Source: Escherichia coli (GTDB lineage Bacteria; Pseudomonadota; Gammaproteobacteria; Enterobacterales; Enterobacteriaceae). Taken from it: a DNA stretch of 64,000 nt. The notes beneath the pieces are model-generated. The model saw only the letters and a program-made list of their open reading frames with translations, did no database searches and had not been told where the DNA came from. Positions 28,255-28,450 of the stretch are shown piece by piece; positions within the stretch are counted from its first letter, which is position 1, and each line of letters opens with the position of its first letter. The stretch is taken from assembly GCF_017348835.2 (NCBI RefSeq), contig NZ_CP071375.1. One strand, given 5' to 3'. The position numbers and the translations under genes were made by a program.

Positions 28255-28450
28255 AACCTCTCACTTTTTCGCCTCACTTTTTCAAGCGTCTCACTTCGTC
28301 GCAATTGGGATTTTTGGTTTTTCTATGTGTGTGTTTCATAAGTATTTTTTTACCCCTCACTTTTGAGGATGTATACAGGTAAAAAAGTGAGGGAGAGCAG
28401 GCTAATTTTGGCCCTCTTTCTATCCACCTCGCTTTTGCTCCTCACTTTTA
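28255..28450. repeat. Putative replication origin: iterons (CTCACTTTT consensus, at least 7 copies, one inverted) flanking an AT-rich spacer, directly 3' of the rep gene
   Basis: Copies near 28260, 28273, 28290 (imperfect), 28366, 28384 (inverted), 28429 (imperfect) and 28441; AT-rich 28305..28360. Confidence 0.65.

What the first reader, a model, noticed from the sequence alone, without database searches (positions are those of the whole stretch)
28255..28450. Iteron-type replication origin immediately 3' of the rep gene
At least seven copies of CTCACTTTT, one inverted so that a pair forms an inverted repeat, flank an AT-rich ~55-bp spacer. This is the arrangement seen for origins of SaPI/PICI-type elements placed next to their replication initiator gene.
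Basis: partly seen in the sequence, partly recalled or inferred. Interest (0 to 1): 0.55.

Follow-up and report, generated by a model that had tools for sequence, protein, structure and literature searches.

The report
Replication origin of an E. coli satellite island
The repeats are real and almost certainly form the replication origin of an 11.5-kb phage-satellite island (PICI) in the E. coli chromosome; this kind of origin is already described, though relatives show that a single amino acid of the adjacent initiator tracks one base of the repeat.

Summary
Observation confirmed. On the coding (-) strand, 28260-28449 holds five exact AAAAGTGAG repeats, one copy with 1 mismatch and one weak, unconserved copy. 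One copy is inverted. They flank a 57-bp, 68% A+T spacer and start on the stop codon of a 468-aa helicase gene.

Interpretation supported. The window is E. coli. The island (22585-34085, in tqsA) is an allele of the published PICI EcCI042, and its origin is 98-99% identical to that one.

About 55 relatives from more than 20 genera keep the same layout: direct repeats, an inverted pair around TGTATA, a spacer, then direct repeats. The repeat core differs by lineage: GTGAGG, GTGCGG or GTGGGG.

The core tracks one Rep residue perfectly. Asn444 goes with A, Ser with C, and Lys or His with G. Two independent Asn/His switches occur inside E. coli. Residue 444 sits just before the third (recognition) helix of a confidently predicted C-terminal winged helix.

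Most likely mechanism: Rep binds the repeats through this domain, melts the spacer and loads itself as a RepA-like helicase.

The kind is known (Fillol-Salom 2018), but the only tested E. coli PICI origin uses an unrelated D5/SF3 helicase. I rate it a new member of a known kind, of moderate interest.

The parts
28448..29854 (-). rep: 468-aa initiator-helicase. N-terminal domain is residues 1-126, the RepA-like ATPase about 146-390, the winged-helix C-terminal domain 396-468.
   Evidence: ORF. Annotated 'helicase RepA family protein' in the 100% identical strain PE164. Pfam AAA_25, residues 146-317, E 2.4e-42. phrog_2850. PDB 1g8y RSF1010 RepA, E 6e-8.
28451..28669 (-). C-terminal winged-helix domain of Rep (residues 396-468), the predicted origin-binding domain.
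   Evidence: AF2 of the domain alone: pLDDT 94.4, three helices plus a beta-hairpin wing. Foldseek neighbours are winged-helix domains (LexA, Fur, BlaI, IclR, SelB, ORC), TM up to 0.81 but E only 0.06-0.3. 100% identical to EcCI042 while the rest of Rep is about 60% identical.
28523..28525 (-). Codon of Asn444 (AAC), the residue just before the third (recognition) helix 445-454; candidate reader of the A in GTGAGG.
   Evidence: It is the only one of 84 C-terminal-domain columns that fully predicts the repeat class: N->A in 19 loci, S->C in 5, K->G in 17, H->G in 6. E. coli L079 has AAC->CAC and all its repeats read GTGGGG.
28428..28449 (-). Rep-proximal direct repeats 1 and 2: AAAAGTGAG at 28441-28449 (overlaps the stop codon) and AAAAGCGAG at 28428-28436.
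   Evidence: In E. coli relatives they are invariant except at the specificity base.
28354..28393 (-). Inverted repeat pair: CCCTCACTTTT (28383-28393) and AAAAGTGAGGG (28354-28364), around an 18-nt centre that holds TGTATACA (28370-28377).
   Evidence: I5. Same position and a TGTATA/ATATATA centre in all genera examined. TGTATA is invariant in 8 E. coli loci.
28299..28355 (.). A+T-rich spacer, the predicted DNA-unwinding element.
   Evidence: 68% A+T. The least stable 30-mer of 27001-30000 is 28323-28352, dG -32.3 against a window mean of -41.3. A spacer of 55-60 nt is present at the same place in relatives.
28260..28298 (-). Rep-distal direct repeats: AAAAGTGAG at 28273-28281 and 28260-28268, plus the weak copy CGAAGTGAG at 28290-28298. 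The last repeat ends about 12 nt before the ATG of the next gene, and its 3' flank supplies a GAGG Shine-Dalgarno-like sequence.
   Evidence: The 28290 copy is not conserved in E. coli relatives.
27996..28247 (-). Downstream 83-aa gene of unknown function (phrog_1231), followed by the island's own SSB gene (27589-27999, -).
22585..34085 (-). The whole PICI (about 11.5 kb) inserted in tqsA, bounded by direct ATAACAGCA repeats. Genes: int 32672-33901, alpA 32109-32297, icd-like 31040-31234, DUF4222 29851-30150, perC 27306-27578, capsid homologue 25442-26497, terS-like 23857-24398.
   Evidence: att repeats. Annotation of strain PE164. AlpA Pfam PF05930, E 5.6e-18. Same site and gene order as EcCI042.

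Best explanation
This is the vegetative replication origin of a phage-inducible chromosomal island (an EcCI042-type PICI). Shown by computation: six conserved 9-bp repeats (consensus AAAAGTGAG-G on the coding strand) lie in two groups around an easily melted A+T-rich 57-bp spacer, starting on the stop codon of rep. Rep is a RecA-fold, RepA-like helicase with a C-terminal winged-helix domain. The repeat sequence co-varies with the residue just before that domain's third helix. The C-terminal domain and the origin are inherited together as one block. Inferred: after induction of the island, Rep binds the repeats through the winged helix, with Asn444 reading the A of GTGAGG. It oligomerises on both sides of the spacer, the inverted pair possibly setting two assemblies in opposite orientation. 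It melts the spacer and loads itself as a hexameric helicase, predicted 5'->3' by homology to RSF1010 RepA. The island's own SSB coats the single strands and host primase and Pol III complete the replisome, so no separate initiator or helicase loader is needed. The repeats next to the downstream gene may also allow Rep to regulate that gene.
For: Repeat cluster far beyond chance. The layout is conserved in about 55 of 63 homologous loci from Xenorhabdus, Kosakonia, Pectobacterium, Serratia, Erwinia, Morganella, Citrobacter, Klebsiella and others, while the core changes between GTGAGG, GTGCGG and GTGGGG. In 8 E. coli loci 45 of 61 repeat columns are invariant against 32 of 139 other intergenic columns (Fisher p = 2e-11), and in six of the seven repeats the one variable position of the core AAAGTGNG is the specificity base. 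Residue-to-base rule over 67 loci: with Asn, GTGAG 187 of 204 motifs; with Ser, GTGCG 28 of 31; with Lys or His, GTGGG 186 of 214. It is the only fully predictive column of 84. Two independent Asn/His switches occur in E. coli in different C-terminal-domain backgrounds: L079 against L077, and L073 against L075. A further Ser/His switch occurs within the Kosakonia-like clade. The winged helix is predicted at pLDDT 94 with residue 444 just before the third helix. Window versus EcCI042: origin 98-99% and C-terminal domain 100% identical, while the helicase body is about 60% identical with a sharp boundary at residue ~394. The spacer is the least stable DNA locally. A 17-kb circular K. pneumoniae record, a cfPICI-like element deposited as a plasmid, carries the same Rep and origin type and obeys the Ser/GTGCGG rule. 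Precedent: origins of this layout sit 3' of rep in SaPIs and E. coli PICIs, and the rep-ori of EcCICFT073 drives plasmid replication (PMC6092414; PMC9371898).
Against: There is no experiment on this replicon type. The tested E. coli PICI, EcCICFT073, has an unrelated D5/SF3 helicase body and different repeats, GGTAGAYA. The E. coli Rep has no recognisable primase domain, unlike most homologues in other genera, so priming is unexplained. The C-terminal domain and the origin are linked, so some correlation could come from hitch-hiking. Foldseek E-values for the small domain are weak, 0.06-0.3. The terS-like and decoration genes look frameshifted, so this copy of the island may be partly defective.
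Confidence: 0.9

Rival explanations
1. The repeats form an operator array for transcription control only. The winged helix of Rep, or another island regulator, binds them to control the downstream ssb-perC-capsid genes, and replication starts elsewhere.
For: The distal repeats abut the ribosome-binding site of the next gene. Winged-helix domains are typical of transcription factors.
Against: No sigma-70-like promoter was found in 27900-28800. The DNA-binding domain is fused to a replicative-type helicase. The two repeat groups, the A+T-rich unstable spacer and the position after rep match validated PICI/SaPI origins. No other repeat cluster exists in the island. This reading is compatible with the origin as a secondary role.
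Confidence: 0.06
2. The region is a DNA-packaging (cos/pac) or site-specific recombination site of the island.
For: Short repeats with an inverted pair occur at some pac and recombination sites.
Against: The repeats co-vary with Rep, not with terS or int. The att core is elsewhere, at 22585 and 34077. The repeat motif is absent from the supplementary files of PMC6092414, which include the E. coli PICI and phage cos sequences.
Confidence: 0.02
3. The region is a chance or low-complexity repeat, an intrinsic terminator of rep, or a small RNA.
For: The inverted pair could fold as a hairpin in the transcript.
Against: It is the top repeat cluster of the window and conserved across genera. The hairpin is followed by an A-run, not a T-run, on the transcribed strand. 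The only terminator-like hit is a weak 5-bp stem on the other strand, no more than shuffles give. There is no Rfam match.
Confidence: 0.01

Closest known systems
EcCI042 (EcCIO42), a PICI of E. coli 042 integrated in tqsA (Fillol-Salom et al. 2018, ISME J, PMC6092414)
   Same: Same att core (ATAACAGCA), same integration site, orientation and gene order. The origin is 98-99% identical and the Rep C-terminal domain 100% identical.
   Different: The Rep N-terminal domain and helicase body, plus the 3' end of the DUF4222 gene (window ~28673-29970), are a divergent allele of about 60-70% identity. I could not see Fig. 2a of the paper, so I do not know whether this particular origin is drawn there.
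EcCICFT073 pri-rep-ori, the only E. coli PICI replicon tested experimentally (PMC6092414, Fig. 2b)
   Same: Same island backbone and the same slot: DUF4222, rep, origin, small ORF, ssb, perC, capsid. The origin sits directly after rep with repeats in both orientations. The first ~130 residues of the two Reps are 47% identical.
   Different: Its helicase body is D5_N + DUF5906 + Pox_D5, an SF3 type, not AAA_25/RepA-like. Its repeats are GGTAGAYA, not AAAGTGAG.
SaPI replication origins and Rep initiator-helicases (Ubeda et al.; Qiao et al. 2022, PMC9371898)
   Same: Self-loading initiator-helicase with a C-terminal winged helix. Six to twelve short repeats lie immediately 3' of rep, split by an A+T-rich centre, with copies in opposite orientation.
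   Different: SaPI Reps are AAA+ SF3 or SF6 helicases with 3'->5' polarity. This Rep is RecA-fold and RepA-like, with 5'->3' polarity predicted by homology only. The repeats are 9 bp rather than 5-6 bp. The host is Gram-negative and regulation is by AlpA.
RSF1010 (IncQ) RepA helicase and oriV
   Same: The ATPase core is homologous to RSF1010 RepA (1g8y, E 6e-8). The origin is iteron-dependent and independent of a host helicase loader (established knowledge).
   Different: In RSF1010 iteron binding (RepC), helicase (RepA) and primase (RepB') are three separate proteins, the iterons are about 20 bp, and priming uses ssiA/ssiB. Here binding and helicase are one polypeptide and the repeats are 9 bp.
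Satellite phage P4 alpha protein with ori/crr
   Same: One protein combines helicase and a C-terminal winged-helix origin-binding domain that recognises short (8-bp) repeats (established knowledge, and the discussion in PMC6092414).
   Different: P4 alpha is primase plus an SF3-type helicase. P4 needs a second repeat cluster (crr) several kb away. No second cluster exists in this island.

Membership tests
PICI/SaPI-type replication origin | Lies immediately 3' of the replication-initiator (rep) gene | tested here: met
   The first repeat overlaps the TAA stop of rep by 2 nt.
PICI/SaPI-type replication origin | Two sets of short repeats (at least 2 each) flank an A+T-rich putative melting region, with copies in opposite orientation | tested here: met
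   Four copies (one inverted) on the rep side and two or three on the far side. The spacer is 57 nt, 68% A+T, and the least stable DNA locally.
PICI/SaPI-type replication origin | The initiator is a helicase with a C-terminal winged-helix domain specific for the repeats | tested here: met
   AAA_25 core. C-terminal winged helix at pLDDT 94. Repeat core co-varies with residue 444. Physical binding is not testable here.
PICI/SaPI-type replication origin | rep plus ori is sufficient for replication, and deleting ori abolishes it | not testable with these tools
   Shown only for EcCICFT073, which has a different helicase type. Indirect support: a 17-kb circular Klebsiella record carries this Rep and origin type.
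PICI (Gram-negative, AlpA-regulated) | Core set of integrase, AlpA regulator, primase/replicase, capsid-morphogenesis gene and small terminase; about 10-12 kb; no tail or lysis genes; a dedicated att site | tested here: met
   int, AlpA (PF05930), rep, capsid homologue and terS-like gene are present. The island is 11.5 kb between ATAACAGCA repeats in tqsA, the site of EcCI042. The terS-like and decoration genes appear frameshifted.
SaPI Rep protein family (SF3/SF6 AAA+ initiator-helicases) | ATPase of the D5/SF3 or MCM-like SF6 type | tested here: not met
   Pfam finds AAA_25 only. Structural neighbours are RecA, RAD51, KaiC and T7 gp4. The sequence neighbour is RSF1010 RepA. The resemblance is analogy in function, not membership.
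Classical iteron plasmids (Rep_3/RepA-pi-TrfA type) | Initiator with two winged helices and no ATPase; 17-22-bp iterons at about 22-bp spacing; conserved DnaA box | tested here: not met
   The initiator is a helicase. The repeats are 9 bp at 11-17-bp spacing. The only DnaA-box-like string (TATCCAC, 28420-28426) is not conserved in E. coli relatives.
IncQ (RSF1010) replicon | Separate RepC iteron-binding protein, RepA helicase and RepB' primase | tested here: not met
   Only the helicase core is homologous, and DNA binding is fused to it. Homologues are rare on plasmids: 33 of 72,556 records, the full-length ones next to DUF4222 as in PICIs.
P4-type ori/crr | A second cis-acting repeat cluster (crr) is required in addition to ori | tested here: not met
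   No second cluster of the repeat in the island or the window.

The most novel reading that the evidence does not exclude
One residue just before the winged helix's recognition helix sets origin specificity: Asn reads A, Ser goes with C, and Lys or His reads G at position 6 of AAAGTGNGG. Lineages have switched specificity repeatedly by changing that one codon together with all six to ten repeats. The C-terminal domain plus origin behaves as a portable cassette that recombines onto different helicase bodies (RepA-like or D5/SF3-like behind a shared N-terminal domain in E. coli; primase-fused in other genera). That would give a naturally occurring and easily re-programmable set of orthogonal initiator/origin pairs in satellites.
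Probability: 0.55. Interest if true: 0.5.

Novelty: new member of a known kind. Interest (0 to 1): 0.38.

Why it matters
The origin marks where this widespread satellite island starts copying itself after a helper phage induces it. The C-terminal-domain-plus-origin module matches 666 of 5,426 complete E. coli genomes, 370 of them at 90% identity or more, including O157:H7. The general design is published, so the finding mainly confirms a correct annotation. The added value has two parts. First, this is a RecA-fold (RepA-like) version of the self-loading initiator-helicase, and it has not been tested directly. Second, the natural Asn/Ser/Lys/His to A/C/G covariation gives a precise, cheap hypothesis for how replicon specificity is set and changed. 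That bears on incompatibility between co-resident islands and on building orthogonal replicons.

Tried and rejected
- Promoter and terminator scan of 27900-28800: no promoter-like site, and one weak terminator-like stem on the wrong strand, no more than shuffles give.
- Rfam at E <= 1: nothing.
- Full-text search for the repeat sequence together with 'iteron', and in the supplements of PMC6092414: no mention.
- NCBIfam: no model for Rep, AlpA, the 83-aa ORF or the terS-like protein.
- Foldseek with the full-length model: only generic RecA-like ATPases, and the weak long match to T7 gp4 says little about the N-terminal domain.
- DnaA-box idea: TATCCAC at 28420-28426 is not conserved in relatives, so I dropped it.
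- Phage collection: only the ATPase core matches true phages. The best full hit is a Salmonella genome record, so this Rep is not a typical phage gene.
- A second 7-mer cluster at 42741-42960 lies in coding sequence at the rstA/rstB junction and is not related.
- EcCIMP1 paper: nothing on the origin.
- Exceptions to the rule: in a few loci (L053/L054, L056/L057, L042, L018) I found no clear repeats of this type. I left these unexplained.

Full report
**1. What is in the sequence**

The genes here run on the - strand. On that strand the 468-codon ORF 29854->28448 ends in TAA, and the repeats begin on that stop codon.

Reading 5'->3' on the - strand, the order is:
- AAAAGTGAG-G at 28449-28441.
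- AAAAGCGAG-G at 28436-28428.
- About 34 nt of unique sequence.
- An inverted copy, CCCTCACTTTT, at 28393-28383.
- An 18-nt centre containing TGTATACA.
- AAAAGTGAGGG at 28364-28354.
- A 57-nt spacer, 28355-28299.
- A weak copy, CGAAGTGAG, at 28298-28290.
- AAAAGTGAG-G at 28281-28273 and AAAAGTGAG-A at 28268-28260.
- About 12 nt later, the ATG of an 83-codon ORF.

This gives five exact 9-mers, one copy with one mismatch and one with two. Only two other exact copies exist in the 64 kb. No other 220-nt stretch of the window has more than four copies of any 7-mer, while this one has six.

The spacer is 68% A+T. It contains the least stable 30-mer of the surrounding 3 kb, with nearest-neighbour dG of -32.3 against a window mean of -41.3, in the 0.6% tail of the window.

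**2. The genomic setting**

The window is E. coli chromosome and is 100% identical over 2.3 kb to strain PE164.

The repeats lie inside an 11.5-kb island bounded by direct ATAACAGCA repeats at 22585 and 34077, which splits tqsA. The island encodes:
- a tyrosine integrase;
- AlpA (PF05930, E 5.6e-18);
- an Icd-like protein and several small ORFs;
- DUF4222;
- the 468-aa 'helicase RepA family' protein;
- the 83-aa ORF, its own SSB and PerC;
- a major-capsid homologue, a decoration protein and a terS-like gene.

This is the core gene set and size of a Gram-negative PICI (PMC10085698). Site and att core are those listed for EcCI042 and EcCIK1516 in Table S1 of Fillol-Salom et al. 2018.

I fetched EcCI042 itself. 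It has the same site, orientation and gene order, and its origin region differs from the window at 7 of 321 positions.

**3. The initiator**

- Pfam finds only AAA_25, residues 146-317.
- A profile of 59 homologues matches a single PDB family, the hexameric helicase RepA of RSF1010 (1g8y, E 6e-8).
- The full AF2 model has RecA-like neighbours: RAD51, KaiC and T7 gp4.
- The last 73 residues, modelled alone, give pLDDT 94.4 and the topology H-H-H-beta-hairpin. Their Foldseek neighbours are all winged-helix domains (IclR/PcaR, SelB, LexA, Fur, BlaI, ORC). TM reaches 0.81, but E-values are weak, as usual for so small a domain.

So Rep consists of an N-terminal domain, a RepA-like helicase and a winged helix.

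**4. Comparative test: layout**

A scan of one genome per species returned 71 loci with Rep homologues of 50-64% identity, in Xenorhabdus, Kosakonia, Pectobacterium, Serratia, Erwinia, Pantoea, Morganella, Citrobacter, Kluyvera, Klebsiella, Sodalis and others.

In about 55 of the 63 loci analysed, the 240 nt after the stop codon have the same plan:
- two to four direct repeats straddling the stop codon, at -13 to +25;
- an inverted copy at about +50;
- a TGTATA/ATATATA centre;
- a direct copy at about +82;
- a spacer of 55-60 nt;
- two to four direct copies at +140 to +190.

In many loci the last codons of rep (…KVGD) are themselves a repeat.

The repeat core is not constant. It is GTGAGG in the window and Xenorhabdus, GTGCGG in Kosakonia, Enterobacter soli, Phytobacter and Rosenbergiella, and GTGGGG in most others.

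Among eight E. coli loci, 45 of 61 repeat columns are invariant against 32 of 139 other intergenic columns (Fisher p = 2e-11). In six of the seven repeats the only variable position of the core AAAGTGNG is that one base. Such a footprint is what a protein-binding array leaves, not what a chance repeat leaves.

**5. Comparative test: covariation with Rep**

In the motif K-x-F-x-R-W-L (window K443-N444-F445), x is Asn wherever the core is GTGAGG, Ser wherever it is GTGCGG, and Lys or His wherever it is GTGGGG.

| Residue x | Loci | GTGAG | GTGCG | GTGGG |
|---|---|---|---|---|
| Asn | 27 | 187 | 3 | 10 |
| Ser | 5 | 1 | 28 | 0 |
| Lys | 27 | 11 | 6 | 125 |
| His | 8 | 1 | 1 | 61 |

These are motif counts pooled over 67 loci. 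Of the 84 alignment columns of the C-terminal domain, this is the only one whose residue fully determines the class; the conditional entropy is 0.

The switches are not a single event:
- In E. coli, L079 (K-H-F, all repeats GTGGGG) is 91.5% identical in Rep to L077 (K-N-F, GTGAGG).
- L073 (K-H-L) pairs in the same way with L075 (K-N-M), in a different C-terminal-domain background.
- The His/GTGGGG loci L030, L035, L036 and L043 are otherwise closest to the Ser/GTGCGG clade.
- A Klebsiella element found later obeys the Ser rule.

Residue 444 sits immediately before the third helix (445-454) of the winged helix, the usual recognition helix. Asn with adenine and Lys or His with guanine are the textbook pairings (general knowledge).

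Linkage between the C-terminal domain and the origin could inflate such a correlation. Three things make direct read-out the best reading: the concerted change of every repeat in a locus, the uniqueness of the column, and the repeated switches. I put it at roughly 0.55-0.6.

**6. Modularity**

Between the window and EcCI042, identity is about 97-100% up to the 3' part of the DUF4222 gene. It drops to about 65-70% through the Rep N-terminal domain and helicase, window ~29970-28673. It returns to about 99% exactly at the start of the C-terminal domain (residue ~394) and stays there through the origin and downstream genes. The C-terminal domain and the origin therefore travel as a unit.

EcCICFT073 is the PICI whose rep-ori was shown to replicate a plasmid (PMC6092414). 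It has the same backbone, but its Rep is a 584-aa protein with D5_N, DUF5906 and Pox_D5 domains, an SF3 type, and its repeats are GGTAGAYA. Yet its first 131 residues are 47% identical to residues 1-126 of the window's Rep.

So E. coli PICIs carry at least two unrelated helicase/C-terminal-domain/origin cassettes behind a shared N-terminal domain. In other genera the RepA-like body is instead fused to what looks, by its sequence motifs, like a TOPRIM-type primase domain.

**7. Mechanism**

Shown by computation:
- the repeats, their arrangement and their conservation;
- the covariation with residue 444;
- the fold predictions;
- the unstable spacer;
- co-inheritance of the C-terminal domain with the origin.

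Inferred:
- Rep binds the repeats through the winged helix.
- It assembles on both sides of the spacer, the inverted pair perhaps orienting two hexamers.
- It melts the spacer and loads itself.
- The island's SSB and host primase and polymerase complete the replisome.
- Polarity is 5'->3', predicted only from RepA homology.

The design matches that described for SaPI Reps: a C-terminal winged helix, six to twelve repeats right after rep, an A+T-rich centre and self-loading (PMC9371898). The motor, however, is from a different superfamily.

A 17-kb circular K. pneumoniae record deposited as a plasmid is a capsid-forming PICI-like element with this Rep and origin type. That fits episomal replication but does not prove it.

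**8. Rivals**

- An operator-only role is unlikely. There is no promoter-like site, the binding domain is fused to a helicase, and the geometry is that of an origin. A secondary regulatory role of the distal repeats remains possible.
- A packaging or recombination site is unlikely, because the repeats co-vary with Rep and the att sites lie elsewhere.
- A terminator, small RNA or chance repeat is excluded.

**9. Comparison with the known, and novelty**

The kind is known. [quoted passage not shown] A near-identical origin sits in their representative element EcCI042.

The element is not a member of the SaPI Rep protein family, of classical iteron plasmids, of IncQ, or of the P4 ori/crr system. 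In each case a defining feature was tested and not met (see the membership table). It works like all of them in part.

I found no description of three things in the papers searched:
- the RecA-fold nature of this PICI initiator;
- the single-residue to single-base covariation;
- the exchange of the C-terminal-domain-plus-origin cassette.

The library is incomplete, so these may still be published elsewhere.

**10. Verdict**

- Observation: confirmed.
- Interpretation: supported.
- Confidence that this is the island's replication origin: 0.9.
- Novelty: new member of a known kind.
- Interest: about 0.38. A specialist would not be surprised by the origin itself, but the specificity rule is a clean, testable lead.

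Noticed in passing
window 28673-29970 (- strand; 3' end of the DUF4222 gene through Rep residue ~394): Sharp mosaic patch relative to EcCI042. Identity is about 65-70% inside the patch and about 97-100% on both sides. The downstream boundary falls exactly at the start of the Rep C-terminal winged-helix domain, so the helicase body has been exchanged while the C-terminal domain plus origin was kept.
   Followed up: partly
window 29477-29854 (Rep residues 1-126); L080 4542-4934: The N-terminal domain of this RepA-like Rep is 47% identical to the N-terminus of the unrelated D5/SF3-type Rep of EcCICFT073. This shared domain of unknown function has a predicted alpha/beta fold. It may be where a common partner docks (primase, DUF4222, SSB or a helper factor).
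   Followed up: partly
L002-L064, e.g. L003 2501-3000: In most non-E. coli homologues the RepA-like helicase is fused to an N-terminal domain with TOPRIM-like motifs (…ITEGYATA…, …AADNDW…). The E. coli proteins lack these motifs. How the E. coli replicon is primed is open.
   Followed up: no
L082 (CP018459.1, K. pneumoniae pKp_Goe_795-4, 16,971 bp circular), rep 5081-6445, origin 4866-5080: This record was deposited as a plasmid. It encodes an integrase, a small DNA-binding protein, this Rep family, capsid, head-tail adaptor and both terminase subunits, so it looks like a capsid-forming PICI captured as a circle. Its origin has the same layout, with GTGCGG repeats and Ser at the position of residue 444.
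   Followed up: partly
window 23857-24398 and 25031-25430: The terS-like and head-decoration genes are annotated as frameshifted pseudogenes in strain PE164, whose match to the window I checked only over 27900-30200. The window ORFs there are short, 170 aa and 76 aa. This copy of the island may be defective for packaging.
   Followed up: no
L020, L021, L027, L033 and others: last codons of rep: In many relatives the last four codons of rep (K-V/M-G-D/E) are encoded by a repeat (AAAGTGGGGGAT). The C-terminal tail of the protein and the first origin repeats are therefore one sequence under double constraint.
   Followed up: no
window 28256-28268: The last repeat and its 3' flank (AAAAGTGAGAGG) supply the Shine-Dalgarno-like GAGG about 8 nt before the ATG of the downstream 83-aa gene. 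Rep binding could therefore also affect expression of that gene.
   Followed up: no
L053/L054 (Klebsiella sp., Tatumella), L056/L057 (Sodalis and a MAG), L042 (Gilliamella): These Rep homologues keep the K-x-F/L-x-R-W motif, but I found no clear repeats of the GTGNGG type downstream. Their origins may be elsewhere or of another sequence.
   Followed up: no
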